Assembly (NCBI GenBank): GCA_000004985.1
Contig: GG738868.1
Source of the DNA: Naegleria gruberi
Lineage: Eukaryota
DNA length: 64,000 bases
Strand: one strand, 5' to 3'
Position numbers and translations under genes: made by a program. Positions 2,916 to 58,990 of this stretch are shown here, one piece after another (position 1 is the first letter of the stretch; every line of letters begins with the position of its first letter). The notes beneath the pieces were generated by a model. It saw only the letters and a program-made list of their open reading frames with translations. It was not told where the DNA came from and did no database searches.

Positions 2916-5760
2916 TTACAATAATTGAGTGAAAAGTAAAATGCAGAATACAAATAAGGCAATATCGTAATTCCACATCAATGCACCACTCACTTGAGCA
3001 TTTCTTCCATTGGAAGTAGATGGCATTGGATTTGATGATTCCAAAGTAATTGCATTCACAAATTCCAAAGGTCTTTCAGGAGTATTTACAAGAGTTCCCT
3101 TTTGATCGAGAACTTTGATTTTTGTAATGAATGAACCAATTTGAGGATTATTCTTGGCTTGGAAGGTGAATTTGATAGTTTGTCCTGATTTCATAAATTC
3201 AACAACTGGAATGGTGATTGAAACAGTTCCTTGTTTTGGAGAATTTGACACGATGGCAGTGGAATTCAAAGCTGTTCCTTCTACCATTGTAATTTTCAAA
3301 GTTCCATTGTTGAGGAGTGGAATGGAAGATCCACTGAATGTGAAAACAAACTTTTCTCCATAGAAATGTCTCACTGGTGTCCAAGTTGTAATCTTAACTT
3401 GGTAGGTTGTATCCTTACCAAACATGGTATCCAAAAGATCCAATGAAGCACAAGGTGAATCTTCATATGGAGCAACACCACATCCAACAATCATATCATT
3501 TGGCATCCAAGCTGTCAAATTTGAAATACTGGCCTTGGCAGCGTCACTCACTGGAAAACTCCAAGCATCACAAAATGGTCCCAAATTTCTCCCGACCACT
3601 TTACTAAATCTCGTCATCCATTGATCTCTTTTCTGATCGTCATTCTGTGGTTGTGGTCCATTCTTTTGATAATCAACAAAGGTCTTCCTGATGGCAACCC
3701 AACCAAATGCTTGAATCAAATCCAAGTAGAAGAGCAATCCAGCACTTGTCCAATCACCCTTAAATGGTTGTGTGTTACCCTTGTAGGTTGTTTCGAGTCC
3801 TCTTGGTGGATTGAAACCTTTACCATAGGTGTTGGCACTGTCTGGATAGTGTTCCTCAAGGTAGAGACTGAAGATGTTGCATGTTACTTCACCAGATTGA
3901 TCGTATGTCCAGGCACCTTCTTGGAAATTGTGTCCCAATTCGTGGTAATGACCCCAACGTCCTGGAGTATTCTTTAATTGACCCAAGTTGGCAGGGTTGA
4001 CTGGAAGAATAGTTCCAACGTTCTGATCTAGAAAAGTCATAAAAGGATAGCCCTGAATGCATATAGCCAGCAGATATTTGAATATCAGCTTGCATTCTTT
4101 CCTTATAATCTCTTGTTTGTCTTTGAGATAGTTCATAATACATGGCCACAACATTTCCCCAATATTTGGCCACAGTCGAAACTTCTGACAACTGTCTGGC
4201 TGTTGGAGTGGCTTGTACATTGAAAGCAAAATGTTCTGATTCAATCTCAACCCATGGTCCTGGATAATTTCTAATGGTGCTGTTCCATTCTTGATCGGTG
4301 TGAATTCCATCCTTGAAAAATGGAGTTTTAACAACTTGTCCAATAACTGTCACATCAACAGAGAGTGGAATTGAAGAGACTTCAATATAAATAGTACCGC
4401 CATTCAAGCAAGTAATGGTTCCAGTAGAGTTGGTTGTGGCACTAATTGAAAAAGTTTTGGAAATGGATGGCCATCTACTCCAGGAATCAAGATGTGCAAT
4501 TCCATCAGTGTGTCCACCAATTCTGACATTGGACACACCCTTTGGATTGGACAAGATAACTTCCAAAGTAGCTCCAGGCAAAGCATAGAAACCAGTACAT
4601 TGCCATCTCTTTCTATTTGTGGATACATTCATTTTCAATGTTTCAGTTGGAGCATTTCTATAGGTCAATCCATTATTTGGTAAACCTGGAAATTGTTCTC
4701 CAGCCAAAACTTCTGGATTATTGTCAATTGGTAAAACTTTAGCTTCATTCAAGACGTCAATCATGAAAATGCAAAGTTTAGGCATGTTGGAAGAAACAGG
4801 AAACTTGATTTCAACTCCTGTACATACAGATTCGTATACAGATTTTGCCTTTCCAATAGTTTCAATAGAATTTGGACTAATTGGTTGTTGGAGAGTTGCA
4901 TAAACATTTGATAACATATTTCCAACAGCTTGAACATCAGAACTTTGAATTAATGAAGCATTCACAGCAAATTGATTCTCAATCTGAACCAATTTGAAAT
5001 ACGGATTCATATCCGAAATTGGAATATTCAATGAGGAAACAAAGGCACCACTTGCAAAATAGTAAGTATAGAAAGAGACACCAAGTTTTGCAAAGAGTAC
5101 ATTGCCAGGGAATTGATTTCCTTGCAAGGAGTGTGCCCATGCTGTGGAAACAACTATAATTCCTCCACCTCTGGCCAAGAACGCATCCATCATTTGTTGC
5201 ATTTGAGGAGTAACTTGACCAACACTGTTAAGATTCATAATGACCAAGTCAACTGTTTCCAATGGAAGAATAGTTGTATCGAATGCACTAGTTGTCTTAT
5301 TTTGGACGAAACCTGGAATTTGATTATAGAAAGAAGCACCATTGACACCATGAAGTAAATATTTGGTTTGTTGTTTGTTGCCAGAGGCCCATTTTGCACA
5401 ATTAACAAGTAAACTACCCAAACTAGAGGTTGTAGATGAGGTTGTGGCATAACCATTGTGGCCAAATGCACAAATCTTTCCACTACTTGGATTGGAATTG
5501 TAGGTTGCAGCCATGGCCACAGGTGTGGTTCCAGCAACAATTAGTGGAACAGCGTTGGAGCCATGGGCAAAGAAGTAACCAGCAGCAGAGGATGGGATAT
5601 CAGTAACATTTACAAGAAGAGTACGTCTTACAGTGTCCAAGTCAGTTAAGGACATGCATGTGGCAGAGTTGACTGACAAGAGAATACAAATCAAACATGC
5701 AATAAAAGCAAAAGCACATAGAGTAGTGCTGTTGCTGTTATTAGAATTGTTTAATTTCAT
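2916..5760 (-). CDS. Secreted M60-like (enhancin/TCAF-like) zinc metallopeptidase; reading frame disrupted near 4030-4070
   Basis: ORF 3889..5760 opens with a signal-peptide-like N-terminus (MKLNNSNNSNSTTLCAFAFIACLICILLSV). ORF 2916..4343 carries the HEXXH zinc motif (GRWGHYHELGHNFQEGAW) and ends in a hydrophobic tail (ALMWNYDIALFVFCILLFTQLL) compatible with a GPI or TM anchor. The two ORFs overlap by 455 nt in different frames. The sequence ...QISAGYMHSG reads in one frame and YPFMTFLDQN... in the other, and no GT donor is visible between them. Confidence 0.7.
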
Positions 5761-12009: not shown

Positions 12010-14410
12010 TTATTTAATGAACCCTTTTAATTGTTTGTAGGTCTTTGATACTCCTCTTATGGAAATAGAGGATTGTGATAATTTCAATGAAAATTTACCA
12101 ACCAAGTGACCAGTCATGACAATTTTATCTGGATTACGTCCATCAGTTTGCACAAATGGAACAAGATAACATTTGCCTGCTCTAAGAACTAATTCATCAG
12201 TGTAAGTGGAATTGTTACACTTAATAACCTTAGATTCAGATCCAGTTGCCACCACCACATCATTCTGAACAACAATGAAAGAGAAGAAGGTTGGTTTGGC
12301 TTGCCCTATATCCTTTCTGAAACGTTTTCCAAGTTGATGAAGACCAAAGTAGGCATCATGTTGATTCTCTCCAATGTCTACACAAATTACAGGATATGAA
12401 GAAGAATCCTGAACAGGAAAGCTTTGCATTGGTACTGAAATATCTGATCTGAAATAAGATGGTTCATATCTACAAAGTGAAATAGTATCAAACCAACTCA
12501 AAAAATCATTAAAAGACATAAAGAAACGTCCATCATCAGCATCACTATAACCAGCCTCTCTCTTCATCTCAACAGTCCAACTATGGAAATTGGTTAATTG
12601 AATCTTGAAAAAAGTTAACTTACTTTGGATCTCGGTCACTCCAAGCTCCTGTCCATTCTCCTTTACCCCAAGGATTTCTTATGTACACTAATTTGAGGTT
12701 TCTCACTTCCTTACATGCAAGGAAAGCATACGCATGGTTTGCAACAAGACCCATCTTGTTACATCCATTATCATCATCTATTGTACTGCAACAGATAAAG
12801 TTATTCTTCTTTACAGCATCAATCAATTGCTTCCACAATTGATCCTTATTCTTTTGATTCTTTACAAAAATATTATGAGATGGATAACCTGTTAACAATT
12901 CAAAAGCCTCAATTGGGTTACCTCCTTCAATATTCAAGTAATACCCACATACTTTAGAGTAGGCTTTTTCAAGTGCAATAACCCACAACTCTGGAGACTT
13001 GTTATATGCAAATAGAGGCGTTCTAGTTCCATTTCTAACTGGGAAGTAATCATCAATGATGACCTTTCTGAACTCACCCCCTATACAAAGATTCAACTCA
13101 TAAATACCCACTGGATTCATTATTTTGGTAGAGAACAATCTTTCAATGAGGATTGGTTCTCTGGCTATGCACGAGAGAGCTGACAAGAAGTAGCAATCTC
13201 CAAGCGATCCCTGTTTAATATCATCAGGCTCAATACCATCGTGGAAAAGAGCAAACTTGGGACCAAGCATTTCTGGAGCTCTCATAAATGTGCACTCTGG
13301 ATAACTCTTTTGATTAGGACCCAATATCGATTTTGCATTTGGAGGAAAGTCAGCATCATTAAATGGTACTCCAGCATTAATTGCATTTATAACTTGCTTA
13401 CTGATAACTCTGAGTGTAGCAAAACTTTCCAAAGCTTTTCTGATGTTGTCATTCTTTTGACTATTGTCCAAAATTTCACCATATCTACACTCTGAAATGA
13501 AAGCAGAAAATTCCTTGTCTTCTCTCAATGAATTGATTCTTTGGTCCATAGCATGAGCTTCATTGTACATAATTTCGGCAATCTTCTTCTGAATGCCTGA
13601 ATATCTCTTTACCAACAATCTCATAGCCGTGAATCTTTTTCTATCTATATATTCCAAGTGTGATAAAATATTTCCTAGATACATGTCAAATGTTTCCTTT
13701 TCCGTATAATATTCCTTAATTGCTTGATTGTTTTCCTGTTCAATCTTAACAAGCTGCCTTTCACAATCTTTAATAGTATTTTCTAGCTGTCTTGTCTCAT
13801 CTTCTGTAAGTGATGGATTGCTCTGCAATTCAGTCGTTGAATCTTGAAGAAGAATTTTATGTTTGAAAGCCTTATTTTTCACTCCATCCAATTTCTTTAT
13901 ACATTTTTTCAATCTAGCATGACATAGAGCTTCTTCTTTCTTGGCGGTCTTAATATGTTTTAGCAAGTCTTTCTTCAATTGAGTCAAATCAACATTAACC
14001 ATATGAAAATCATTATCTGTTTTTTTATATTCTTCACCTAGGTTCCCAAGACTAGCAGCTAATTTGTCAAAAACACCATAATCTTCACTGTTATGATGAT
14101 TGAACAATCATGCATTTCAATTATAAAAATAACAGATTAAAGAATTAGCATTAACTACTTACTCTATTCGACTTTGTACCTTTATGAGAGATATTTGATG
14201 GTATTCATTGGCCATGTTCTTGTACATCTTTTTTGTTTTCTCTACAATCTTATGAAAATGCCCGATTTCTACCAAGTATTTATTCAATTGCTGAATAACC
14301 TCAGGAAATTTATCTTTCAAAGCGAGGGAGTAGGGCGTATTAGAGCCACTATCGAAATCAACATTCGGTTCAACAGCATACAACTGCGGTTTTGCCATGA
14401 CTGCACCCAT
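12010..14410 (-). CDS. Calpain-like cysteine protease (CysPc plus domain-III-like) with an approximately 330-aa N-terminal coiled-coil/BAR-like extension and a predicted N-myristoylation start
   Basis: Three exons: 14163-14410 (MGAVMAKPQLYAVEP...VQSRI), 12624-14087 and 12010-12580. Introns at about 14088-14162 (75 nt, GTAAGT...AACAG) and about 12581-12623 (43 nt, GTAAGT...CCATAG). The catalytic core carries the Cys motif (QGSLGDCYFLSALSCIA), the His region (GLVANHAYAF) and the NPWG motif. The post-splice junction DPN-WTVEMKREAGYSDADDGRFFMSFNDFLSWF matches the canonical calpain end of domain II. The domain-III-like C-terminus follows. Confidence 0.8.
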
Positions 14411-33108: not shown

Positions 33109-36100
33109 ATGGAACGTGCACCAGAGTTTATCAGTCACGATCGTTTCAGCCACTTTATCGCCAATGATGAGTGGAATTACAACTCCAACGAAAATATATT
33201 GAAACATATTTATACTGAAAAGAAGGCTCCGATCAGTTTATTTTCATACAAGATACAAAATGATGGCTTGATCGAAGAGGGTGTTGGTTATACACAATTA
33301 TTCAAGAGACCATTGTTCAATGATGTTGTTGGAAATGGACTTTTTGAAAAGGAGAAGAAGGAATCAAAGGTTGGAGATTCATTTGGTCCAAGTTGGGCTA
33401 CTTTTTGGTTTGAGATTAATTTCCAAGTGCCAAAAGAGTGGATCGGAAAGGAAGTACATTTTTTGTGGAATAGTAATAGTGAAGCTTTATTGTTTGATAA
33501 GAATGGTGTTGTATTGCAAGGTTTAAATGGTGGCGAAGGATGGGATAGACGTGAGGAATTTTACATTGATCAAAAATTAATTGATCAAGATGGAAGTTTA
33601 AAGTTTTATATTGAACTTGCTTGTAATGAAATGTTTGGAAATGGTTTTGGTGGACAAATTAATCCTCCAGATCCAAATCGTTACTTTAAGTTGAAAAAGG
33701 CTGAAATTGCCCTATTTGACAGATTGGCCTTTGATTTGATGTATGATTTCAAGATTGTGATGGAATGTGCAAAGGAATTGGACAGTAAGAGACATAGATC
33801 AAGAGAAGCTCTCATCACAGGAAATGAGATGTTAAAGGTTTTCGATCCAAACGATAGAGATTCTTGGCAAGAAGCTAGAGATATTGCTGCCAAATTCTTG
33901 GGTAAAAAGAATGGTGACTCTACTCACAATATTATTTCTGTTGGTCATTGTCACATTGACGTTGCTTGGTTGTGGCCTTATGCTGAGACAAGAAGAAAGG
34001 CAGGCAGAAGTTGGGCTAATCAATTGAAGTTTATGGAACAAAATCCAAATTTCCAATTCATGCAATCCCAAGCTCAATTATATGATTGGGTTAAGGAAGA
34101 TTATCCTGAACTTTTTGAAAGAATCAAGGCTAGAGCAAAAGAAGGTAAATTTATTCATGTTGGTGGATCTTGGGTTGAGACTGATGGTGTTCTCCCATCT
34201 GGTGAATCATTCTGTAGACAATTCCTTTATGGACAACGTTTCTTCAAGGAAGAATTTGGCTCTTATTGTACAGAATTCAGTCTTCCAGATAGTTTTGGTT
34301 ACTCTGCTGCATTCCCTCAAATTTTGAGATTGAGTAAGATTGATTCATTCATTACTCAAAAACTTTCTTGGAATTTATTCAACAAATTCCCTAACTCTAC
34401 ATTTGTTTGGGAAGGTTTGGATGGTTCTAATGTATTTACTCATTTCCCTCCAGCAGACACATACAATGCCAGTTTGCAAGTTAAGGAGTTGTTATTCACT
34501 GAAGAAAACTTTAAAGATAAGGAAATTAGCTCATACAGCTTGTGTCTCTATGGTCATGGTAAGTTTTTTTCAAAAATCATTTTATCAATTCTATTTCACT
34601 TATATATTTATTACTATAGGTGACGGTGGAGGTGGTCCAGTTATTGATCATCTTGAAAGAATTAAGAGAATTCACGATGTTCAAGGTTTGCCTAGAGTAA
34701 TTGAACAAACTCCAAAGTATTTCTTTGATAAAGTTAAGGAAGAAAATAGAGAATATCCATTAAAGACATGGAGAGGTGAATTGTATTTGGAACTCCATCG
34801 TGGTACTTTCACAAGGTAAGTTTTTTCATTATTATTGAGCTATATCTTTTCATCTTTCACAGTCAAGCAGCTGTCAAGAAGGGAAATCGTAAGTGTGAAC
34901 TCATGTTGAGAGAAGCTGAATTATATGCCACATTGGCAAAGAATTTGGCTGGTTTCAATTATCCTCAAAAGGAATTTGAAAAATTGTGGAAGAATGTCTT
35001 ACTCAATACATTCCACGACGTTTTGCCTGGTTCTTCAATTGGTCTCGCCTATGCAGATGCAAGAGAAATTCATCAACAAGTTTTGAAACGTGCCAGCGAA
35101 ATTCGTTCTGATGCTCTTTTGGCTCTCACAAACAAGAATACCAAGACCAATGGAACTCAATTGGAAAAGGCAATAACTGTTTGGAACTCACTCCCTTGGG
35201 AAAGAAGAGAAATTGTGGAGATAGATTGTCCTCCTGAGGTATTGGGTGATAGAGTTTGTACTCAAAAATCAGCTGATGGAAAATGTTTGGCTCTTGTTCA
35301 ACTTCCATCCACTGGCTTTAAGACTGTTTCAGTTCAAGAAGCCATTGTTGCATCTGCCTCCTCTACCGAGTCTATGGTTACTTTGAACAAGAAGGGTCAT
35401 TCCTATGTATTGCGTAATCAATTTGTTGAAGTAATTATCAACGAACATACTGCCACAGTTGACATTATTGACTTGAAGAGCAATAGAAAACTTGTTCAAA
35501 ATGGTAATAGATTCGTTCTCTTCAATGATAAGTGTTTATTCTGGGACTCATGGGATGTAGAAATTAATCACTCAGAGAAAGAACTTCCAATCAAAGGATA
35601 TTGTGAAGGTTCATTAACTATTAAGGTTGTTGAGAGTGGTCCATTGAGATGTGTCTTGGAAGTTTTCCTTCCAATTAGTGAAACTAGCTCCCTTTCACAA
35701 ACCATTACGTTGAACTGTCTCTCATCAAGATTGGATATTGCAAACAAAGTTGATTGGCATGAAAAGCACAAATGCTTGAAAGTCAAGGTTCCAACTCATA
35801 TCTTCTCCGATCATGTTACCTTTGATCATCAATTTGGATTTATTAGACGTTCCAATTTGAAGAATACTAGTTGGGATGTTGCTAGATTTGAAGTTACTGT
35901 TCAAAAGTATATGGTCATTTCAGAATATGGCAGTGGTGTTGCCTTAATGCAAGATTGTAAATATGGATGCTCTGCAACACAAGACGGTACTTTGTACTTG
36001 ACCTTATTGAGAGCTCCAAAATCACCTGATGCTAATTGTGATATGGGTCATCATGAATTCACCTATGCTATTCAATCATACAATGCCTCAACATTCCAAG

Positions 36101-36501
36101 ACGCTCGTATTATGCAAAGTGCTTATGAACTCAATCAACCTGTTAATGTATTGACCTATGACAGACCAGTTCAATTGAATGAAAATGAAATTGTTGCTGT
36201 TGAGACTGAAGAATCAATTATTAGTGTCACTACAGATCAAGTTTTCTGTGAAACATTGAAGGTTTCTGAAGATTCATTGAATGATTTGGTCGTTCGTTTG
36301 CACGAATGTTACGGATCACATACAGCCCCTTACCAACTCAAAATCAAATCACCTCAAACCCCAAAGGCAGTTGTTGTGACAAATATTTTGGAAGATGAAG
36401 AAATGTTCAGACTCAAATTTACTCATGACAACTCTACACTTGTTATTGAAATGCCACCACTCAAACCATTCCAAATTTACAATATCAAGATCAAATATTA
36501 A
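33109..36501 (+). CDS. Alpha-mannosidase, glycoside hydrolase family 38 (cytosolic/vacuolar Ams1/MAN2C1-like)
   Basis: Three exons: 33109-34558, 34620-34815 and 34863-36501. Introns of 61 and 47 nt (GTAAGT...TATAG and GTAAGT...CACAG). Motif ISVGHCHIDVAWLWPYAETRRK. The GH38 motif LYGHGDGGGGP is reconstituted across the first splice junction. Confidence 0.85.
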
Positions 36502-38844: not shown

Positions 38845-40302
38845 TTACTTTTTCTTTCTATCAAACTTTTCAGCAAGAATTCTCTCAGTATTTCTATCAG
38901 GTTTAACTGGGAATTTGCTGTAGAATAGGGCTGCTTTATCAAAACAACCAGAACGAATGTAACATAGCAGTAATGAGTTGCAAATTCTCAATTTTCCATC
39001 ATTGTCCATGGTTTCATCGTAGTATTTACGATAGAAAGCCTCTCCAAGATCTGCCTTCTTTACGAGAGCCAATGCATAAATAATATTGTGAAGGTTTCTA
39101 GTGTTAATTCTCTGTTGTTGCTCCAATTCTTGAATGTACATCATGAGATTTTCAACTCTATCTAGGGCTGCAAAACTTTGAACGAAATATCTAATGAAAA
39201 TGTAGTGATATTTTTCTTTGAATTTTCTAATATTGTTGTAAACTTCAATGACTTGCTCGTATTTTCTGGCATTGAAGAAATGGTGAACTAGTTTAGTATC
39301 GATGAATTCATTCGATTTCACACCAAAGTAATTCATTACTTTGAGGAGACTCTCGAATTTTTGTTCATCCTTAGTGTTGTGATAGGTTGAAAGCATGGTA
39401 ACGATAGTTCTTTGATTAGGTATCACACCTATTGGGCTTTTGATTATTCCCTTCTTCTTTTCAGAATCAAATTCTTCCAATTTTTCTCCTAAAATATACT
39501 GGTTGAAATAATGTTCAACCTTGTCGTATTGACCTGCATTGAAGAAACACGAAAGGAGAGCATTTACCAATTCGGTATCAATAAATTTGTGTTGGGCATT
39601 ATCAGATTGTTGAATAGCTTCTTGGAAAGTTGACTCTGCCTTTTCAATATCTCCAACTTTGAAATAGGCATCCAAGAGAAGAGAATAAGTGTAATTATTT
39701 GGTGCCATCTTTTGCCTCAAAAGTGAAACAACCTTCTCCACATTTCCAATACTTCTCTGTTTTGAATAGAGTAAAATCATGCAATTACAAATATGAATGT
39801 CAGGATACTTGATTTGTGAAAATATTTGTTCAGCCTTTTCAACATTTCCTTCATATGCATAAGCTTTTAATAATTCTGTCAAATTGAAAGAATCTGGATG
39901 TTGAATCTTTTCAAAAGTCTTTTCAACTTTAGAATAATTACATTTCTTTGTATAAAAACTCATAATAATATTATAAATATGATTGTCATATCTTTCCGAT
40001 GGGAATAAACCCAAATAATGTTCAAATTCACTTTCCGACAAGTTATTAATACGAGATTTTTCCTTCAAAATCCTAGTAAATTCCTTTATCGACAGGGTTT
40101 CATCCTGTTGTTGTGCAGATGATCGATTCTTAAAACTTCCACCCTCCAGAGTATTATTAACATTTTTATAAAATCCTCTCATAGTGATGATATTATGATT
40201 GAAGATTGAATTTCCGAGCAATGAAAATACACTATTCTTTGATTTTACAGACGATAATTGTCTCTCAGATGAGAGAAGCAATCGTTTCACTTGTTGTTTC
40301 AT
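38845..40302 (-). CDS. Pentatricopeptide/TPR-like helical repeat protein (probably organellar)
   Basis: 485 aa with repeated roughly 35-aa helical hairpins (LLKAYAYEGNVEKAEQIFSQIKYPD, YTYSLLLDAYFKVGDIEKAESTFQEAIQ). Confidence 0.5.
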   Translation of the reverse strand: MKQQVKRLLLSSERQLSSVKSKNSVFSLLGNSIFNHNIITMRGFYKNVNNTLEGGSFKNRSSAQQQDETLSIKEFTRILKEKSRINNLSESEFEHYLGLFPSERYDNHIYNIIMSFYTKKCNYSKVEKTFEKIQHPDSFNLTELLKAYAYEGNVEKAEQIFSQIKYPDIHICNCMILLYSKQRSIGNVEKVVSLLRQKMAPNNYTYSLLLDAYFKVGDIEKAESTFQEAIQQSDNAQHKFIDTELVNALLSCFFNAGQYDKVEHYFNQYILGEKLEEFDSEKKKGIIKSPIGVIPNQRTIVTMLSTYHNTKDEQKFESLLKVMNYFGVKSNEFIDTKLVHHFFNARKYEQVIEVYNNIRKFKEKYHYIFIRYFVQSFAALDRVENLMMYIQELEQQQRINTRNLHNIIYALALVKKADLGEAFYRKYYDETMDNDGKLRICNSLLLCYIRSGCFDKAALFYSKFPVKPDRNTERILAEKFDRKKK

Positions 40303-49836: not shown

Positions 49837-51771
49837 ATGACGAAAAAGAAACCACAAAAAAAGTCATCACAATCCAACAATAATTCATCAGTGCCGTCGG
49901 GATCTAACAATGCAGGAAAACAATCCCTCACCGAGCACGAAATACAAATGGTTTTATTGGAGGAACAAGAAATTGATCAATTATTTTCTACCATGTCCCT
50001 GAAAAGAAAACCAATTGCAAAGGATGGAGCTTGTCTTTTTAGAGCCTTTTCTGATTTGTATTATGGAACACAAATTTATCATGATAGAGTTAGAAAATCA
50101 TGTATTGAATATATGAAAGAACACGAAAGTTTTTTTAAAGATTTTATATTTGAAATGGATTTTAATTCTTATATTAAATTCATGTCAAAAGCTACATCAT
50201 GGGGAAGTCAATTGGAATTGGAAGCTTTGGCTTCATTGTACAAGGTCAATATTACAGTATATGGTGTAAATGGAATCTTGACTGAACATAGAGGAGATCC
50301 AACTCTTGAAGCACAAGATGTGAAAAATCAATGGAGTTCTGATACTTCAATTTCTGATCTGATAAGACAAAAGAAACTGGAAAAGGTTGAACCAAAGAAG
50401 AGAAAGGAAATTAGATTAGCGTATTTGTATGGAAGTCACTACGACTCTGTTTATCCAGCAAATGAATTTATGAATACTATCATTGTTCAAGATATTATTT
50501 ATGATACCTTTATGGACCCATTTAAAAATGATTTATTTCAAAAGAAGGTTGGAACCTACAAGAATGTGGAATATGATGCTTGGTTAGATGAACTTGAAAA
50601 GATGGAAAAGAAATCTCTTCAAAAAGTTAAGGAATTATTATTTCAGAATGAGAAGAGTTATGATTTGGATGATCCAAGGGAATTCCCACAACTTGCAAAA
50701 CAAAGTTCAAACTCAATTTCACCACCAGTTGCTTCATCCTCATCAACAGATTCTGCAACACCACAAGATGGTTCTGCTGAAAATGCAGATTCATCCGTTA
50801 CAGTAGAAGAAAAACCAGTCAATGCTTGGTTGACTCAAGAGAAACCAAACTGGGCTTCAGTAGCTATAACCAAACCAGTTGAAACTCAACCGGAAGCACA
50901 ACCTGAAACTCAAACTAATGGTACCACTCCAACAATTAATGCCTCAACAAATAATAATAATAATGGAACTACCAAGTCAGTAATATCTCAATCCCACTCA
51001 TTAACAGTCAAAATGGAAACCAGTACTACTCAGGAATCCTCCAACAACAAGAAAAAAGCTAAAGGAAATCACAAATCAAAGAAACCAAAGAACACCGAAA
51101 TATCAAGTAATCAACAAGTTAAACCTAATACTAAGGATGATGTATCATTAACAAATGATGAAGTGAAACAGTCACCTCCAGTTGTGAATATTAATAACCA
51201 AAATAATTCATCTCAACAACAATCAGTGACAATTTCCCAACAACCACCATTAGTTTCTCAATTTTCTCCTCTTACTGGTTATCCTCAACAACCATTCTCT
51301 CCACCCCAATTTATGGGGCAACCTGGAGTCTTTCCTAATCAACCTCCTTTCCTTGTCATGATGCCTCCCCCAGGCACTTATCCAATGCCTCAACAAAATC
51401 CAAATAATGGAATGATTTTAATTCCAACTAATTTGGTTCCGCCAAATTTTGTTCCTCATTATCCAATGATGCCACCAATGCAACATCATGCAAATCAAAT
51501 TGTTCCTCCACCACAGCAGCCTGTTGTTGTTCAGAATCATCAACCAGTTATTCCTCAAGTTGTTACTGAACCACCTAAACCGGTCTCTGCCTGGTCCATG
51601 CCATTACAATCCAATCCAACTTCCAATTTGACTGTTTCTTCTGTTGTAAATTCACAACCAGTCTCTACTTCCACCTCAAGTAGTACTACACCAGCTCAAT
51701 CAACAACAAGTAAATCAGAACCATCAACTACACAGTCAGGCAATAAGAAGAATACAAGAAAGAAAAAGTAA
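49837..51771 (+). CDS. OTU-domain deubiquitinase with a long Q/P/S-rich C-terminal low-complexity region
   Basis: OTU catalytic motifs DGACLFRAFSDLYYG (Cys) and YLYGSHYDSVYP (His). 644-aa single exon. Confidence 0.75.
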   Translation: MTKKKPQKKSSQSNNNSSVPSGSNNAGKQSLTEHEIQMVLLEEQEIDQLFSTMSLKRKPIAKDGACLFRAFSDLYYGTQIYHDRVRKSCIEYMKEHESFFKDFIFEMDFNSYIKFMSKATSWGSQLELEALASLYKVNITVYGVNGILTEHRGDPTLEAQDVKNQWSSDTSISDLIRQKKLEKVEPKKRKEIRLAYLYGSHYDSVYPANEFMNTIIVQDIIYDTFMDPFKNDLFQKKVGTYKNVEYDAWLDELEKMEKKSLQKVKELLFQNEKSYDLDDPREFPQLAKQSSNSISPPVASSSSTDSATPQDGSAENADSSVTVEEKPVNAWLTQEKPNWASVAITKPVETQPEAQPETQTNGTTPTINASTNNNNNGTTKSVISQSHSLTVKMETSTTQESSNNKKKAKGNHKSKKPKNTEISSNQQVKPNTKDDVSLTNDEVKQSPPVVNINNQNNSSQQQSVTISQQPPLVSQFSPLTGYPQQPFSPPQFMGQPGVFPNQPPFLVMMPPPGTYPMPQQNPNNGMILIPTNLVPPNFVPHYPMMPPMQHHANQIVPPPQQPVVVQNHQPVIPQVVTEPPKPVSAWSMPLQSNPTSNLTVSSVVNSQPVSTSTSSSTTPAQSTTSKSEPSTTQSGNKKNTRKKK

Positions 51772-51927: not shown

Positions 51928-52263
51928 TTACAAATTATCTACAACTTGTCTCGATTGATAAAAACCATCTTTTGGATGATTTCTATGCCACTTTTTATGA
52001 TTGGTATCAGTGGATCGATGATACCATTGATCATTCGTCCTTCGCCTTATAATAGATTCCTGTTTCTTTGCTTCAATAAACTCTAACTTTTCCCATCCTT
52101 TTGCTGTGTTGTACTTTTCGAAAGTTACCGAAACACCTCGATCACTTTCTTTTGATCGGAATTTGTTTGTACTATACTTTGTGGAGGCTTCAGAAGTTTT
52201 AGGCACTCGAGGTGTTTGTGCCTTGACTTTGCCACTTCTTGCCAACGAACCATACATACGCAT
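51928..52263 (-). CDS. Small basic protein with an RPS30-like N-terminal motif and a divergent tail
   Basis: 111-aa ORF. Its start reads M-YGSLARSGKVKAQTPRVPK, close to the conserved ribosomal protein eS30 core ([22 protein letters not shown]). The remainder lacks the conserved K/R-rich eS30 tail. No spliced continuation is found downstream. Confidence 0.35.
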   Translation of the reverse strand: MRMYGSLARSGKVKAQTPRVPKTSEASTKYSTNKFRSKESDRGVSVTFEKYNTAKGWEKLEFIEAKKQESIIRRRTNDQWYHRSTDTNHKKWHRNHPKDGFYQSRQVVDNL

Positions 52264-52498: not shown

Positions 52499-55400
52499 AT
52501 GTCTCTTCCTGCCCATAATTTTCTCTACAGGGATAATCCGATAGAGACAATGAAGAGGAATGTTGAGCAGTTTTTCAGGGGAGGACCACCAAGAGGGCTA
52601 CAACAGGCTCCACCTCCACTCTTTGTTAGGAATGTTTTGCCAACATCGAGAACACCTGTGTTTGCTAATCAACCTCCTTCTCCTTCTTTGCTGACTCAAA
52701 TGAATGAACAACAAACGAGTAGTGAGGAAGGAATTGATGAAAGGAGAGATAAGACCATTCTAATGAGTAGACCCCGAGAGTATGAAGACATCAATCAAGA
52801 TACCATTAAGGACACAGCCTTAGACTTTGAACATCAACAACAATTAAAAGAAAAATCCGATGTAAATAATAATAGAGAAAATAATATTGATGATAACCAG
52901 GAGAATAGTAATAATAGTAATAATATTAACGCAAATACTTTGGGAGAATTATTTTCAAATAGTGTACTATCATCTTACAAATGGTTAAAATTTGATGGTG
53001 ATAAGGCTTGTGTTTATTCCGATCAAAACCTCACAACTATTGTGGAGACTTATGAAGTATCAAAGAGGTTGGGGAAAGGATCAGGAGGAAGTGTCTTTTT
53101 GTGTACAAAACAATCGGATAAGACTGCAATAGCATTGAAGAAAGTCCATGTTGATGATAAATACTTGTTGGAGATGGCAGTAAAGGAGTATTCACTTCTT
53201 GTAAAGCTGAATGAGGAAGGAAAAGGAAATGATAATAGAATTACACCAGTATTTGAACTGTTCATTGATATTGATTCACGGAATGAAACTTACATTATGT
53301 ATTTTACAATGCCAGTGTATCATACAGATTTAGAGAAATATATGAAACAAGCGAGGAAGGATAGTACGATTAATCAAAATATTGTTTTGTCAGTAATGAC
53401 GCAAGTCTCAAAGGCCTTGTCTTACATTCACAGGAATAATATTTGCCATCGTGATATCAAGCCAGCAAACATTTTGGTGGAAGATGTGAAACCTGAATCA
53501 ATCACTTGCGTTTTGGCTGATTTTGGATTGAGTAAGGAAATTGAGGAATCATCAAGACATTCAAATGTGGGAACTTTGAGTTTTTTTGCTCCAGAAATTC
53601 TAACAGAAGAAAGTTATGGGCTGAGAGTGGATGTTTTCGGACTAGGAGTTGTCTTGTTCCAATTGATAACTGGAGACTATTCCAAGAAGATAGCTTGGGA
53701 ACTTGTCCAAAAACCAGAAAATCTTGTGGAGCAATTAATTCAACAACAAATGAAGAATGCCCTCCCAACATTGGAAGATGATATCATTCAAATTATTCTT
53801 CAAATGTTGAAGAAATCACCTCGTCAACGAATTCACTCAACAGAGATTTATCACTTTTGTTTGATGAAGAAAACCAAATCCAAAAAGTTGCAACAATTAG
53901 AGCACAGACTTTCAAATCAGCCTAAACCAATACCTCCACTTAGAACCTCCACTTTACCGCCCAATAGACCACCTTCAAGAAGTATTCCAGAATCAACATT
54001 ACACCAAACTCCAGAAATCAAATTACATGAAGTCCCTGTGGTTTCCTCGTCAAATGATTTACCATCCATTGATAGTTCAGTAAAAGTAAGATCAAAATCT
54101 TTCAGCCAAAGGCAAGATGTAGCGCTGCATGTTATAACAGAAACTTTGGCAGGCTCTTTCAGAAGACTATTCACAAAAACAGATGAAAACTCATTTACCT
54201 CTTTAGAGAGTGCTCTAGCTTTCTGCAGATCACAAGCACAAGATGTTACTTTTACCATATTACTTCATCCAGGAGTGCATAAAATCAAGCAGGTTTTTCA
54301 CATTGATAGATCAAACATAATATTTGAAGGTATTGAAAAGAATGATGAGGAGGCAATTGTTCAAGGAGAGAAAATAATTATTACTGCCAATGTTCTCTTT
54401 AGAAAAATTAATTTTGTAGGAAAGAAGATAATCAAGGGTAGTTTAATGACCAATCCTATAATTATTCAATGTCTGAATTGTGAACCAAAAATCTTGAACT
54501 GTAGAATTAAGGGAAAGGTGTCAATACATTCTAAAGTTCCAAATCTCTGCCCTCACATTGAAGGAACAGAAATATTTGGTAACAGTGATAAATTAAAAAC
54601 AGATCCTCACGAGAGACTTGGGAAAGAAGCATTGTACATTGAAAACTGCTTGCCAATTGTGACAAAGAATAGAATCCACGATAATGGTAAGTAATTTCTT
54701 TGACAAAACATTTTTTACATGAAACAGAAAGTGCAGGAGTGGGGTTGAAGAATTGTGGAGGAATATTCTCAAATAATCATGTGTATAATAACTTTATTTC
54801 AGAAGTACCGGCTGTAATTTTATCGAATGGATGTACAACAAGATTAGTTTCCAACATGTTTTATGACAATATTGCATGTATGTCTATTTCCAATTCTGAC
54901 TGCTGTTGTGAAAACAATGAGCTAAGATCGAGTAGAATTGGAATCAATGCCATTAATTCTTCTGTAATACTAGAAAATAATGAAATTGTAGGAATGAATG
55001 ATTGGGCCATGACTTTGAAGAAGTGTTCTAATTTTGTAAGTTCTCTTTGAGAATATAGCTAATCCACAGATTAGAAAATCACCAATAACAAGTTACACAA
55101 TAACAGGATAGGATTGTTTATGGACGAAATTAATGGAGAAGGGTTAGTGTCAGGAAATAGGTTTAGCTCTTGTAATTCAAAACAATTTTCATCCATTTCG
55201 ATAACTCACCTTTCAAAGATAACAAGTGTTTCTCTACAAGAAAATATGTAAGTGTAATTCAATTTAATGAAATATTTAATGAAATATGAGTCTAGATTTT
55301 TCCAAAACATTGGTGGGGCAATTAATATTTCTGGAAAGGAAGACCTCTCAGAGAATTACATGATCAAGTTGAATATTTCAAAGAATCAAATTTTCAATAA

Positions 55401-55793
55401 TTCAATGTATGGAATAAGGGTTCTTAATGCCATGGGAATTTTCATTTTGGACAATAATATCTTTTCTAATATGGACTCTGGTATAATATTGGATTCACAT
55501 CATGCTGTCACTGTTGAATACAACATTATTAAGGATCATGTTCAATCCCCAGCAATCAGTAAGTTGAAATTACATCTCTCTAATAACTTTGTTCTTTAGG
55601 TATTTTGAGAAATTCTAATCATTTAATTGTAAATAATTCACTTTCAGGAAATGCAAAATACGATTTATTCATCAAAGAACCATTATCAGAGGAATTCCCC
55701 ATGGTTATCAAAGACAACAAGCTATCTAATTCTGAAATAAGAAAGTCCATTCATTACGAAGGAAAAGATGAACAATTTTCAGAAAATGAATAA
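52499..55793 (+). CDS. Ser/Thr protein kinase fused to C-terminal parallel beta-helix (PbH1/pectin-lyase-fold) repeats
   Basis: Five exons (52499-about 54686, 54728-55035, 55075-about 55247, about 55296-55558, about 55600-55793) with introns of 41, 39, 48 and 41 nt. Kinase motifs LGKGSGGSV, AIALKK, HRDIKPANILV, DFGLSK and GTLSFFAPE. After a linker come at least eight PbH1-type repeats (ENCLPIVTKNRIHDNGESAGVGLKNCGGIFSNNHVYNN..., NNKLHNNRIGLFMDEINGEGLVSGNRFSSCN, NISKNQIFNNSMYGIRVLNAMGIFILDNNIFSN..., VNNSLSGNAKYDLFI). Track ORFs 54700..55050, 55267..55599 and 55605..55793 are exons of this gene. Confidence 0.75.
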
Positions 55794-55813: not shown

Positions 55814-56716
55814 TTAAATTCCTGAAGATAAATCTGAATCACTACTATATGTTCTCATTTCTTCCAACTGAGCAACATTTTGAGAGGCAACAGTCTTGAA
55901 TCCAATTTCGTCTTTCATATCTTCATCAGTAAGGAGGCACCGTTGAGATTTATCCTTCTTTGAGTAGCTAGTCATACCATTCAGTAAATCTCGTCCTTTA
56001 ACACCATTTGTGATAACAGCCACAGAGATACCAACAAATACAATACAAGCTGCTCCAATTATAATAATGTACCAATAATTCTGTAAGAACCATATGAACC
56101 CTCTTCCGTAACTGTATTTCGTTTCGACATTAATCGTCAAGAGAGATGAATTCTCCTGATTTAAATTCACACTAACAAAAACATAAGAATCAGAGGTTGT
56201 AATGTAAACGATATGAGTGTCTTGGCTATCAGTTTCGTTCAAAACTTGAATATTCATAGCCTTTTGTCGTAATGTTCTAAGTGAAGGATCTTTAATAAAT
56301 TCAAAATAACCAGACCTGGTAACTATCATAAAATTGCATTTGACAGTTGCACAATTAGCTGATATTCTCAAGTTATCCAACATATTTTCCTCCGTAATAT
56401 TAAAAGGTATCGGAATGAGAGATGAAGCCGGTATTGTGTTATTAAATGAAAATAAAAGCTTCTTTCCATTACTAGTTGAATTTTGTTGAGGTGAAACATC
56501 ATTAAGGTTTGCCAAATCCAATGCTTCTGTAACACTATTTCCTAATACTAATACAGCTATTATACATGCTATCAATAATCCTAGATTTGATGAAACCCTA
56601 GAGTTTTGAATGTGACGGAAAATTATGCATTTTCCTAGCATTGTTTTGTTCAGTTTTTTTTGGGATGCGTTGTTAGTGCCCTTAATATACAGGATCGGAT
56701 CTCTTATTAGCTTCAT
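55814..56716 (-). CDS. Hypothetical type-I membrane protein (signal anchor, extracellular domain, one TM, short cytoplasmic tail)
   Basis: 300 aa. N-terminal hydrophobic segment (LGLLIACIIAVLVLG). A second TM (WYIIIIGAACIVFVGISVAVI) near the C-terminus with an acidic/Ser-rich tail. Its stop is 20 bp from the kinase gene stop. Confidence 0.4.
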   Translation of the reverse strand: MKLIRDPILYIKGTNNASQKKLNKTMLGKCIIFRHIQNSRVSSNLGLLIACIIAVLVLGNSVTEALDLANLNDVSPQQNSTSNGKKLLFSFNNTIPASSLIPIPFNITEENMLDNLRISANCATVKCNFMIVTRSGYFEFIKDPSLRTLRQKAMNIQVLNETDSQDTHIVYITTSDSYVFVSVNLNQENSSLLTINVETKYSYGRGFIWFLQNYWYIIIIGAACIVFVGISVAVITNGVKGRDLLNGMTSYSKKDKSQRCLLTDEDMKDEIGFKTVASQNVAQLEEMRTYSSDSDLSSGI

Positions 56717-56810: not shown

Positions 56811-58990
56811 TTATTTGAATTGGACTTTGTTTCCTTCGAATTCGATAAGCAATTCTTCAATAGTCTTGACACCTTGTTCCTTATCGCTATCTCTAATTCT
56901 AATGTTAACACTGTCACTTTCCATTTCCTTAGGACCAACAACCAAAATATAGTTGTATTGAGACAATTGAGCATTTCTGATCTTCTTGTCAATTCTATTG
57001 CTGCTCAAATCAACATCAACGTAGTACTTGGCTTCATGGAGCCTCTTTTGAACCTTTTCAGCATATTCGTTGCACTTGTTGGAAACTGGAACAACGATAG
57101 CTTGTCTTGGTGAGAGCCAGAAAGGCCACTTACCACCAAAGTGTTCAGTAGCAATAGCCAAGAATCTTTCCAATGAACCAAAGATGGCTCTGTGGACAAT
57201 AACTGGTCTAGATTCAGTCTTATCTTCAGCAGCATAAGTCAAATCGAAACGAATTGGCAATTGGAAATCCAATTGAACAGTAGCACATTGATGTTCTCTC
57301 TTCAAAGCATCAGAAATGAGAATATCAATCTTTGGACCGTAGAAGGCACCATCACCTTCATTCTTTTGCCAAGAATGACCGAATTCATTCAAAGCAGCTT
57401 CCAATTGACCTTCAGCTTCATCCCATTGACTAATTTCACCGAGATACTTTTCTGGTCTAGTAGAAAGGAAAAGTCTGAATCCGAAACCAAAGATCTTGTA
57501 AATGTCTTGCATCATACGCAAAGCACCCATAATTTCACTCTTAATTTGATCTGGACGACAGAAAATGTGAGCATCATCTTGTTGGAATTTTCTTAAACGA
57601 GTCATACCAGTCAAAGCACCCTTCAATTCATTACGATGCAAAACACCAAAATCAGCAAAACGAATTGGCAATTCTCTGTATGATCTAGTTCTATGTTTGA
57701 ACATGAGACAATGGCTAGGACAGTTCATTGGCTTCAAGCTGTGTTGAGCCTTATCAATTTCCAAAACAAACATATTTTCAGCATACTTATCCCAGTGACC
57801 AGAAGTCTTCCATAAATCACTGTGGAAAACATTTGGAGTTTGAACTTCAGAGTAACCACGATGCCAATATTCATTTCTCATCAATGATTGAATGCTATTG
57901 AACAAACGTTGACCGTGAGGTAAGAAGAAAACCATACCAGGAGCATATGGATGGAAGAACCACAATTCTTGATCCTTACCAATGATACGATGGTCACGTT
58001 TCTTAGCTTCTTCCATCAAAGTTTGCCATTCCTTCATGAGTTTCTTGTCTGGGAAAGACATAGCATAGACACGTTGCAAAGTTTCCTTGCTAGCATCAGC
58101 TCTCCAGTAAGATGATGAGTTCTTAGTGACTTCAAAAGTGGTAACTTTACCAGTATTCAACAAGTGAGGACCCTTGCAAGGATCGATCAATCTACCACAA
58201 CGATAAACACTACAATAGTCTCCTTCCTTGACCTTTTCAGACAAGATTTCAACCTTGAACTTGTTATCAGCGAACAATTCAAGAGCTTCAGCCTTGGTGA
58301 TGAGCAATCTTTCGAAAGGTTGCTTTTCATTGATAATCTTGGTGACAGCATCCTTGACTTTTGGATAATCAGTTTCGGAGACAGAACTATTCATGATGAA
58401 ATTTGTTGTTGTTAATTATATTGATGTTATATTTCATAGAGTGTCATGTTGTTAATATTCAGTAGTTGTTATTATTATAATAATAATAGAGGAAGAATTA
58501 GTGTAGATAATAATAATTAGTATCATCATCATACAATAAAAACTTACTTATCACCCATGTAGGCTTCATAGTAGAAACCACCATCTTCCAATGGAGGTCC
58601 CTTACAGAGGAAGCATTTGAAAACATCTTCCATAGCTTCACCCATAACGTGAGAAGAACTGTGCCAGAAAACTTCCTTGGCTTCTGGGTGGTCAAACTTT
58701 AACAATTCCAAAGTACAATCACCTTCAAGAGCTCTACCCATATCCCACAATGCACCATTGACTTTAGCAACGACACAATTAGCAGCAAGACCAGCAGAGA
58801 TGGACATGGCAATATCGTGTGGAGTGGTTTCGTAAGCCTTACCAGGTCTAGTACTATTATCTGGGAGAGTAATAGTGATTTCCTTTCCAAGGACATCACC
58901 TAATTCTTGTCTTCTTCTTTCCTTGAATTCTTCAAAGAGTTTATTTCTCTTAGCATAGTATTCATCAATCTTTTCAAAACTGACGCTCAT
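56811..58990 (-). CDS. Threonyl-tRNA synthetase (cytoplasmic-type, N-terminal TGS and editing domains)
   Basis: Exons 58548-58990 and 56811-58386. Intron about 161 nt (GTAAGT...GAATAG). Collinear with eukaryotic ThrRS: TGS (ITITLPDNSTRPGKAYETTP), HSSSHVMGEAMEDVF, class-II motifs (FHSDLWKTSGHWDKYAENMF, RFADFGVLHRNELKGALTGMTRLRKFQQDDAHIF, GPKIDILISDALKREHQCATVQLDFQLP) and the anticodon-binding C-terminus. Confidence 0.9.

What the first reader, a model, noticed from the sequence alone, without database searches (positions are those of the whole stretch)
52499..55793. Protein kinase fused to a C-terminal parallel beta-helix (PbH1) repeat domain
The N-terminal half is a complete Ser/Thr kinase catalytic domain. 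The motifs are:
- G-loop LGKGSGGSV
- AIALKK lysine
- HRDIKPANILV catalytic loop
- DFG
- APE

Four exons further on, the same reading frame encodes at least eight PbH1-type right-handed beta-helix repeats. That fold is typical of pectate lyases, NosD and FBXO11 CASH domains.

A kinase joined to a pectin-lyase-fold module is not an architecture I know from characterised proteins. The beta-helix could act as a carbohydrate- or ligand-binding sensor, or as a substrate-recruiting module for the kinase. Four short in-frame introns (41, 39, 48 and 41 nt) support a single transcript rather than two adjacent genes.
Basis: partly seen in the sequence, partly recalled or inferred. Interest (0 to 1): 0.65.

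Follow-up and report, generated by a model that had tools for sequence, protein, structure and literature searches.

The report
Naegleria kinase fused to beta-helix domain
This is a real five-exon gene of the amoeba Naegleria gruberi that encodes an apparently active serine/threonine kinase joined to a long right-handed beta-helix; related amoebae, including the pathogen N. fowleri, have the same gene, and it is a lineage-specific, unstudied kinase rather than a new kind of system.

Summary

**Gene model.**
- The window is Naegleria gruberi NEG-M.
- Coordinates 52499-55793 (+) hold five exons and four GTAAGT..AG introns (41, 39, 48 and 41 nt). Spliced, they give a 1041-aa protein.
- Pfam finds Pkinase (residues 185-451, E=2e-44), Beta_helix (E=5e-16) and NosD-like repeats.

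**Evidence for one gene.**
- The beta-helix already starts inside exon 1, in the same uninterrupted ORF as the kinase.
- All four intron positions and phases are shared with the N. fowleri ortholog, and three with Willaertia magna.
- A metagenomic relative encodes the kinase C-lobe, linker and whole beta-helix in one 753-aa ORF.

**Structure.**
- There is no signal peptide or transmembrane segment, so the protein is cytosolic.
- All catalytic kinase motifs are conserved in five lineages.

**Distribution.** A scan of 1.84 billion representative proteins found the beta-helix N-terminal region only in this small Naegleria/Willaertia-type family.

**Novelty.**
- Orthologs are already in databases with this domain pair, uncharacterised.
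- Kinase plus PbH1 repeats is reported in cyanobacteria (Pkn22).

**Function (inferred).** The beta-helix is most likely a docking or targeting platform for the kinase.

**Interest.** Modest.

The parts
52499..54686 (+). Exon 1 (729 codons plus 1 nt). It encodes the N-terminal low-complexity region, the kinase domain, the linker and the first part of the beta-helix.
   Evidence: It is an uninterrupted ORF. Spliced model. Alignment to orthologs.
52499..53050 (+). N-terminal region, residues 1-184. Residues 1 to about 150 are N/S/P/Q-rich and not conserved in the orthologs. Residues about 157-184 are a conserved pre-kinase segment. The true start could be M1, M18, M68 or M89.
53051..53851 (+). 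Ser/Thr protein kinase catalytic domain, residues 185-451. It has the G-loop (192), the AIALKK lysine (214), HRDIKPAN (317), DFG (341) and APE (364).
   Evidence: Pfam Pkinase E=2.4e-44. Motif positions. Invariant columns.
53852..54118 (+). Post-kinase segment and linker, residues 452-540. A conserved basic segment (HFCLMKKTKSKK) follows the kinase. Then comes a P/S-rich linker, predicted disordered, ending in the RSKSF motif that is conserved among Naegleria species.
   Evidence: Invariant columns. pLDDT is below 50 for the equivalent stretch in both models.
54119..55757 (+). Right-handed parallel beta-helix domain, residues about 541-1030. It has a capping helix and about 17-18 coils and spans exons 1-5.
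54687..54727 (+). Intron 1, 41 nt, phase 1, GTAAGT..CAG.
   Evidence: The position and phase are shared with N. fowleri and W. magna. Other Naegleria fragments read into an intron at the same site.
54728..55035 (+). Exon 2.
55036..55074 (+). Intron 2, 39 nt, phase 0, GTAAGT..TAG. It contains an in-frame TGA.
   Evidence: Shared with N. fowleri and W. magna.
55075..55247 (+). Exon 3.
55248..55295 (+). Intron 3, 48 nt, phase 2, GTAAGT..TAG. It contains an in-frame TAA.
   Evidence: Shared with N. fowleri and W. magna.
55296..55558 (+). Exon 4. It is the only exon that reaches the Beta_helix threshold on its own (30.6 bits).
55559..55599 (+). Intron 4, 41 nt, phase 1, GTAAGT..TAG.
   Evidence: Shared with N. 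fowleri.
55600..55793 (+). Exon 5, including the TAA stop at 55791-55793.

Best explanation
**Shown.** A single five-exon Naegleria gruberi gene encodes a soluble, cytosolic 1041-aa protein with these parts:
- a poorly conserved low-complexity N-terminus;
- a divergent but catalytically complete Ser/Thr kinase domain;
- a short conserved basic segment;
- a linker of about 75 residues, predicted disordered;
- a right-handed parallel beta-helix of about 490 residues (about 17-18 PbH1-type coils with an N-terminal capping helix).

The fusion is ancestral to a small family found in Naegleria, Willaertia and one unidentified relative.

**Inferred.** The kinase is active. The rigid beta-helix works as a non-enzymatic docking or targeting platform. 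It would hold substrates or a scaffold partner, or anchor the kinase at a site in the cell. The flexible linker would let the catalytic domain reach what the helix binds. FBXO11 and SHCBP1 use intracellular PbH1/CASH beta-helices for partner recognition in this way (from my own knowledge, not tested here).
For: **Gene model**
- The kinase and the start of the beta-helix share one uninterrupted ORF.
- The alignment to orthologs runs straight across all four junctions.
- Intron positions and phases are conserved with N. fowleri (4 of 4) and W. magna (3 of 4).
- The metagenome homolog L004 has the kinase C-lobe, linker and full beta-helix in one 753-aa ORF.
- A second N. fowleri annotation gives a 981-aa product in the same 90% cluster.

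**Orthology**
- The neighbourhood is conserved. ThrRS lies a few kb downstream on the opposite strand in both N. gruberi (about 1 kb) and W. magna (about 4 kb).
- GH38 mannosidase and a PPR gene lie upstream in N. gruberi and N. fowleri.

**Active kinase**
- The G-loop, Lys, HRD, DFG and A/SPE motifs are conserved in all five lineages.

**Fold**
- Pfam hits.
- Structure model with pLDDT 85-96.

**Cytosolic**
- No 19-residue window exceeds Kyte-Doolittle 1.6, and the N-terminus is hydrophilic.

**Co-inheritance of the two domains**
- The L004 kinase domain is closest to the family's kinases (138-183 bits) and scores at most 108 bits against generic kinases.

**Non-enzymatic**
- The invariant residues in the helix are mostly structural Asn, Gly and Ile. 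No conserved Asp/His/Lys cluster is present.
Against: - No transcript data were available. The splice sites rest on sequence signals and comparative evidence.
- The functional role of the beta-helix is pure inference.
- The closest structural relatives are carbohydrate-active enzymes and glycan-binding tailspikes. This argues equally well for a glycan ligand.
- The 'no catalytic site' argument rests on only four or five sequences.
- The N. gruberi exon-1 model was poor overall (mean pLDDT 58).
- Inter-domain contacts could not be examined.
Confidence: 0.55

Rival explanations
1. The beta-helix is an intracellular sensor for a glycan or other repetitive polymer, and ligand binding regulates the kinase. 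Candidate ligands are cyst-wall precursors, storage polysaccharide, or polysaccharide from ingested bacteria that reaches the cytosol.
For: - All structural neighbours are carbohydrate-binding or carbohydrate-processing beta-helices: AlgE4/AlgG, PL6 lyases, GH87, GH110 and phage tailspikes.
- PbH1/CASH repeats are named after carbohydrate-binding proteins.
- The cyanobacterial kinase Pkn22, which also carries PbH1 repeats, takes part in stress signalling.
Against: - The protein has no signal peptide or transmembrane segment, so it does not face the extracellular or phagosomal space.
- No conserved acidic or aromatic groove motif is evident in the family alignment.
- Sequence identity to any glycan-binding relative is only 8-18%.
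Confidence: 0.2
2. The protein is bifunctional. The beta-helix is itself a catalytic domain (lyase, epimerase or glycosidase) fused to a kinase.
Against: - Profile-to-PDB hits are not significant (best E=0.066, NosD).
- No invariant Asp, His or Lys in the helix region across four family members (only K22, E32, R97 and E153 are invariant).
- A cytosolic location is unusual for these enzyme classes.
Confidence: 0.05
3. The gene model is an artefact. A kinase gene ends at 54694 and one or more separate beta-helix genes lie downstream.
For: - The ORF continues into intron 1 and stops at 54694.
- The exon-1 tail alone has no Pfam hit.
- No transcript evidence was available.
Against: - The exon-1 tail is part of the beta-helix.
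- The downstream exons have no start-to-stop ORF of their own and are separated by canonical introns.
- Intron positions are conserved across genera.
- L004 encodes the fusion in one ORF.
- The Pfam score of the spliced protein (59 bits) exceeds that of any single exon (30.6 bits).
Confidence: 0.02
4. The kinase domain is an inactive pseudokinase, and the whole protein is only a scaffold.
For: The kinase is divergent. The best PDB match scores only 81 bits and the best non-family database hit 111 bits.
Against: Every catalytic motif (GxGxxG, the beta-3 Lys, HRDxKxxN, DFG and A/SPE) is kept in five lineages that share only about 31-45% identity in the kinase domain.
Confidence: 0.03

Closest known systems
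Uncharacterised orthologs: N. fowleri FDP41_012159 (XP_044566215.1, UniProt A0A6A5C422), N. lovaniensis C9374_001435, Willaertia magna ABK040_005783 (KAL9644322.1)
   Same: They have the same order of Pkinase, linker and Beta_helix/NosD. They are 34-43% identical over the full length or domain. They share intron positions and gene neighbourhood.
   Different: They lack the residue 1-150 low-complexity N-terminus of N. gruberi. N. fowleri and W. magna have extra introns, including one at alignment column 754 that N. gruberi has lost. None has been studied experimentally, and no paper was found.
Cyanobacterial Hanks-type kinase Pkn22 (Alr2502) and relatives with PbH1 repeats
   Same: An N-terminal Ser/Thr kinase is followed by PbH1 repeats. 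PbH1(8) is listed for Alr2502 and Ava_0434, and PbH1(3) for CwatDRAFT_1649 (PMC2176072). Pkn22 is a characterised signalling kinase (PMC6985446).
   Different: These are bacterial. No specific homology was seen: the exhaustive scan with the beta-helix N-terminal region found only the amoebal family. This is probably an independent fusion. The role of the PbH1 part of Pkn22 is not discussed in the paper checked.
Intracellular eukaryotic PbH1/CASH proteins FBXO11/FBXO10 and SHCBP1/Nessun Dorma (from my own knowledge, not tested here)
   Same: A cytosolic beta-helix with PbH1 repeats is attached to a signalling module and is used for partner or substrate recognition.
   Different: The partner module is an F-box, or there is none, rather than a kinase. 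Homology to the Naegleria helix was not tested because no sequences were at hand and the AlphaFold database library was unavailable.
Solved right-handed beta-helix proteins: cyanophage Pam1 tailspike 7eea, phage Andhra gp15 8egr, AlgE4 2pyg, alginate epimerase/lyase 8ja4, PL6 lyases, NosD 7o0y
   Different: Identity is 9-18%. These are secreted, periplasmic or virion proteins, most with catalytic grooves. There is no significant sequence-level match.
CAMK-like, Aurora and IKK kinases (the closest solved kinase domains)
   Same: A canonical eukaryotic protein kinase fold with Ser/Thr-type HRDxKxxN and GT..PE motifs. The best match is a CDPK at 81 bits.
   Different: No EF-hands or other CDPK features. 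Scores are nearly flat across several kinase groups, so no group assignment is possible.

Membership tests
Eukaryotic protein kinase superfamily (Pfam PF00069) | Profile match above the curated threshold over the whole catalytic domain | tested here: met
   152.2 bits against a cut-off of 31.7. Residues 185-451 cover profile positions 1-258 of 263.
Eukaryotic protein kinase superfamily (Pfam PF00069) | Catalytic residues: GxGxxG loop, beta-3 Lys, HRD Asp with Lys and Asn, DFG, APE | tested here: met
   GKGSGGSV (192), K214, HRDIKPAN (317-324), DFG (341) and APE (364). They are invariant or conservatively kept in the orthologs.
Eukaryotic protein kinase superfamily (Pfam PF00069) | Phosphotransfer activity | not testable with these tools
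   Needs a biochemical assay.
Right-handed parallel beta-helix / pectin lyase-like fold (Pfam PF13229, PbH1 repeats) | Profile match above threshold | tested here: met
   59.1 bits against 25.9, in four stretches. Orthologs score 54.6-106 bits.
Right-handed parallel beta-helix / pectin lyase-like fold (Pfam PF13229, PbH1 repeats) | Three-dimensional fold: stacked coils of three short strands | tested here: met
NosD (PF05048), periplasmic component of the NosDFY system | Profile match | tested here: met
   42.2 bits against 23.6. This overlaps the generic Beta_helix match.
NosD (PF05048), periplasmic component of the NosDFY system | Periplasmic or secreted location and a partnership with the NosF/NosY ABC transporter | tested here: not met
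   No signal peptide or transmembrane segment. It is a eukaryotic gene with unrelated neighbours. It is therefore NosD-like in its repeats only, not a NosD.
Polysaccharide lyase or epimerase beta-helix enzymes (PL6, AlgE/AlgG) | Significant sequence relationship and conserved catalytic residues in the groove | tested here: not met
   The best PDB sequence and profile E-values are 0.3 and 0.066. The invariant helix residues include no Asp, His or Lys cluster. The alignment is shallow, so this is weak evidence.
Receptor / transmembrane kinases with an extracellular sensor | Signal peptide and a transmembrane segment between the sensor and the kinase | tested here: not met
   The maximum 19-residue hydropathy is 1.49, inside the kinase domain. 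The linker is P/S-rich and hydrophilic.
Calcium-dependent protein kinases (the closest solved kinase) | C-terminal EF-hand calmodulin-like domain | tested here: not met
   No EF-hand family among the Pfam hits.
Cyanobacterial Pkn22-type kinases with PbH1 repeats | Specific homology beyond a shared domain pair | tested here: inconclusive
   These kinases were not retrieved by the exhaustive HMMER scan with the beta-helix N-terminal region. The Pkn22 sequence itself was not available for a direct comparison.

The most novel reading that the evidence does not exclude
The beta-helix is a cytosolic recognition module for a repetitive polymer, for example bacterial or cyst-wall polysaccharide. Ligand binding would switch on the attached kinase. 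That would make this an amoeba-specific pattern-recognition kinase pathway, confined to Naegleria/Willaertia-type heteroloboseans and present in the pathogen N. fowleri.
Probability: 0.1. Interest if true: 0.7.

Novelty: new variant of a known kind. Interest (0 to 1): 0.3.

Why it matters
- It corrects and firms up the model of an N. gruberi gene that I could not retrieve from the public protein collections.
- It defines a small, conserved, lineage-restricted kinase family with an unusual accessory domain.
- The kinase domain is divergent from host kinases: the best solved relative scores 81 bits. The family includes N. fowleri, so it is a possible selective drug or marker target.
- It is also a clean case for asking what an intracellular PbH1 beta-helix does when tethered to an enzyme.
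- It does not reveal a new class of system.

Tried and rejected

I used contiguous window pieces and orthologs instead.
- The afdb50 fold library was unavailable. No census of kinase plus beta-helix architectures in the AlphaFold database could be made.

**Searches that found nothing useful**
- The word-index search with the C-terminal 510 aa found nothing. It shares only 4-6 five-residue words even with true orthologs.
- The profile of four beta-helix domains returned only one bacterial caspase-beta-helix protein.
- The metagenome DNA-pattern scan returned one bacterial secreted PbH1 protein, which is irrelevant.
- Exact look-ups of the spliced 1041-aa protein and of the 731-aa read-through ORF found neither in the collection.
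- The genes next to the L004 homolog have no detectable similarity to the window, N. fowleri or W. magna loci, so the L004 organism remains unidentified.
- Literature searches for the gene identifiers, and for kinase plus beta-helix in protists or the Stentor and transmembrane-kinase surveys, found nothing.
- The Pkn22 functional paper does not discuss the PbH1 part.

**Readings considered and rejected**
- Two separate genes.
- A receptor kinase.
- A NosD ortholog.
- A CDPK.
Full report
**Source of the window.** Exact-sequence look-ups place the window on a 427,589-bp scaffold of Naegleria gruberi NEG-M.
- The ORF at 49837-51771 is XP_002677101 (NAEGRDRAFT_67608, an OTU protease).
- The ORF at 51928-52263(-) is NAEGRDRAFT_67609.
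- The ORF at 55814-56716(-) clusters with NAEGRDRAFT_67611.
- The threonyl-tRNA synthetase downstream clusters with XP_002677200.
- The window is 34% G+C.

**Check of the observation.** The first ORF runs from 52499 to a stop at 54694.
- Removing four short segments joins five pieces into a 3126-nt reading frame. The segments are 54687-54727, 55036-55074, 55248-55295 and 55559-55599.
- The product is 1041 aa with no internal stop.
- All four segments begin with GTAAGT and end with AG.
- They are 41, 39, 48 and 41 nt long. They are therefore not all 'in frame'; their phases are 1, 0, 2 and 1.
- The two whose length is a multiple of three contain in-frame stops, so all four must be spliced.
- The quoted kinase motifs are at residues 192, 210, 317, 341 and 364.
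- Pfam finds Pkinase (residues 185-451, E=2.4e-44), Beta_helix (E=5.2e-16, four stretches) and NosD (E=8.3e-11). All three exceed the curated thresholds.
- Taken exon by exon, only exon 4 reaches the Beta_helix threshold (30.6 bits). The spliced protein scores 59 bits. That is what one domain spread over several exons would give.

**One gene or two.** Several independent lines say one gene.
1. The beta-helix starts in exon 1.
   - In the structure model of a family member, the fold begins with a short strand and a capping helix. These align to N. gruberi residues about 541-575, and coils follow from about 583.
   - A model of the N. gruberi exon-1 product itself is poor overall (mean pLDDT 58). 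Even so, it gives pLDDT 80-93 and the short-strand pattern for residues 569-729.
   - The kinase and the first coils therefore share one uninterrupted ORF.
2. The alignment with the N. fowleri protein is continuous across every junction, for example RIHDN|ESAGVGLKNC against KIHDNETNGIVLLNC.
3. I rebuilt the exon structures of the N. fowleri and Willaertia magna genes from their loci.
   - All four N. gruberi introns coincide in alignment column and phase with N. fowleri introns. Three coincide with W. magna introns.
   - N. fowleri and W. magna share one further intron (column 754, phase 2) that N. gruberi lacks.
   - Short fragments from other Naegleria genomes read into an intron at the intron-1 site.
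4. A 96-kb eukaryotic metagenome contig (L004) carries a more distant homolog.
   - The kinase C-lobe, the linker and the whole beta-helix form a single 753-aa ORF.
   - The kinase N-lobe lies just upstream, across one 53-nt GTATGT..CAG intron. Removing it restores the SPE motif and gives a 983-aa protein.
5. A second annotation of another N. fowleri strain gives a 981-aa product in the same cluster.

No transcript data could be consulted. The splice junctions therefore remain inferred, though strongly.

**The family.**
- The full-length search returned two proteins with the same Pfam pair. These are N. fowleri FDP41_012159 (980 aa, E=1e-192) and N. lovaniensis C9374_001435 (914 aa). The next hits are ordinary kinases at 111 bits or less.
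- An exhaustive HMMER scan used the 190-residue exon-1 tail against 1.84 billion representative proteins. It gave only nine hits at E<=1e-3.
- The real hits are N. lovaniensis, Willaertia magna ABK040_005783 (899 aa, Pkinase plus Beta_helix), the L004 protein and two Naegleria fragments. The rest are repeat-rich bacterial proteins matched through many short stretches.
- The gene neighbourhood supports orthology.
  - ThrRS lies downstream on the opposite strand in both N. gruberi and W. magna (about 1 kb in N. gruberi, about 4 kb in W. magna).
  - A GH38 alpha-mannosidase and a PPR gene lie upstream in N. fowleri and, with about 10 kb of extra genes, in N. gruberi.
- The L004 kinase domain is closer to the family's kinases (138-183 bits) than to generic kinases (108 bits or less). 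The two domains have therefore been inherited together.
- I could not identify the L004 organism.

**Anatomy.**
- Residues 1 to about 150 are N/S/P/Q-rich and absent from the orthologs. The true start may be M1, M18, M68 or M89.
- A conserved pre-kinase segment (about 157-184) precedes the kinase.
- The catalytic motifs are conserved in all five lineages, which argues for an active Ser/Thr kinase.
- The kinase is divergent. The best solved relative is a CDPK at 81 bits, and IKK-beta, CASK, Aurora A, DCLK1 and PKR follow within about ten bits. I make no group assignment.
- A conserved basic segment (HFCLMKKTKSKK) follows. After it comes a P/S-rich linker, predicted disordered, that ends in RSKSF, a motif invariant among the three Naegleria species.
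- The beta-helix is modelled on the L004 homolog because the spliced N. gruberi sequence could not be submitted. It has pLDDT 85-96 and 52 short strands, which is about 17-18 coils.
- Foldseek against the PDB gives only right-handed beta-helix proteins, at E from 3e-6 to 1e-3.
- At sequence level nothing in the PDB is significant. The best values are E=0.3 for a single sequence and 0.066 for the profile.
- There is no transmembrane segment and no hydrophobic N-terminus. The protein, helix included, is cytosolic.

**How it probably works.**
- Shown: the architecture, its conservation, the intact catalytic motifs, the fold and the lack of membrane or secretion signals.
- Inferred: the helix is a rigid, non-enzymatic platform that binds substrates, a scaffold or a cellular structure, and the flexible linker lets the kinase act on what is bound.
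- I prefer this reading for two reasons. The residues invariant across the helix are almost all structural Asn, Gly and Ile, with no conserved Asp/His/Lys cluster. The intracellular PbH1/CASH proteins I know of (FBXO11, SHCBP1) use the helix for partner recognition.
- The main rival is an intracellular glycan or polymer sensor. The carbohydrate-related nature of all structural neighbours favours it.
- A catalytic helix, a pseudokinase and a two-gene artefact are unlikely, for the reasons given under the rival explanations.

**Comparison with what is known.**
- The same domain pair is already deposited, uncharacterised, for N. fowleri, N. lovaniensis and W. magna.
- A kinase with PbH1 repeats is not unprecedented. 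A 2007 survey of cyanobacterial Ser/Thr kinases lists PbH1 as one of 14 accessory domains, including PbH1(8) in Alr2502 (Pkn22) (PMC2176072). Pkn22 has since been shown to phosphorylate HetR (PMC6985446), but the role of its repeats is not discussed there.
- My scan did not link the bacterial and amoebal proteins, so an independent fusion is the simplest reading. No direct comparison was possible.
- I found no paper on a eukaryotic kinase fused to a beta-helix, or on these genes.
- The AlphaFold database library was unavailable, so the wider eukaryotic distribution is not settled.

**Verdict.** This is a new, lineage-restricted variant of a familiar theme, a protein kinase with an accessory repeat domain. 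Its interest is modest. It gains a little from its presence in N. fowleri and from the open question of what an intracellular beta-helix does.

Noticed in passing
window 52499-55793: The public N. gruberi protein for this locus never appeared. A full-length search and the exhaustive scan returned no N. gruberi hit, and the exact spliced sequence is not in the collection. All neighbouring N. gruberi proteins are present (D2VFF5, D2VFF6, D2VFF8, D2VFF9). By numbering the gene should be D2VFF7/NAEGRDRAFT_67610. Either the deposited model differs or is missing, or it is masked in these tools.
   Followed up: partly
window 51928-52263 (-): This 111-aa ORF is NAEGRDRAFT_67609/D2VFF6. Only its first 29 or so residues resemble ribosomal protein S30 (MYGSLARSGKVKAQTPRVPK; Pfam E=1e-6). 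The remaining 80 residues are unrelated, and no S30 continuation shows in the other frames. It may be a mis-modelled gene or an S30-like leader on an unknown protein.
   Followed up: partly
window 55793 / 55814: The kinase gene's stop codon and the stop codon of the convergent gene 55814-56716(-) are only 20 nt apart. That gene is NAEGRDRAFT_67611, has no Pfam family and contains a hydrophobic stretch. The 3' untranslated regions must overlap.
   Followed up: no
L001 (ENA ERZ929261, contig k127_15021, 7140 nt): A contig labelled as metagenome encodes proteins identical to window ORFs (the 300-aa ORF and the ThrRS fragment). N. gruberi DNA is therefore present in that sample.
   Followed up: no
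window 56811-58394 (-) and orthologs: N. fowleri and N. lovaniensis each carry two threonyl-tRNA synthetase genes (FDP41_012494 and FDP41_012191; C9374_008036 and C9374_001400). One copy in each species lies on the same contig as the kinase-beta-helix gene.
   Followed up: no
window 33109-36501 (+), 38845-40302 (-): A GH38 alpha-mannosidase (two ORFs, presumably split by an intron) and a PPR-repeat gene lie in the same order as upstream of the N. fowleri ortholog. N. gruberi has about 10 kb of additional genes in between, including LSM14-like and OTU genes.
   Followed up: partly
L002 / L003 compared with window exon 1: N. fowleri and W. magna share a phase-2 intron inside the first coils of the beta-helix (alignment column 754). 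N. gruberi has none there, which looks like a lineage-specific intron loss.
   Followed up: yes
window 3889-5760 (-), 12620-14107 (-): Other genes in the window include an M60/enhancin-like peptidase and a calpain-family protease.
   Followed up: no
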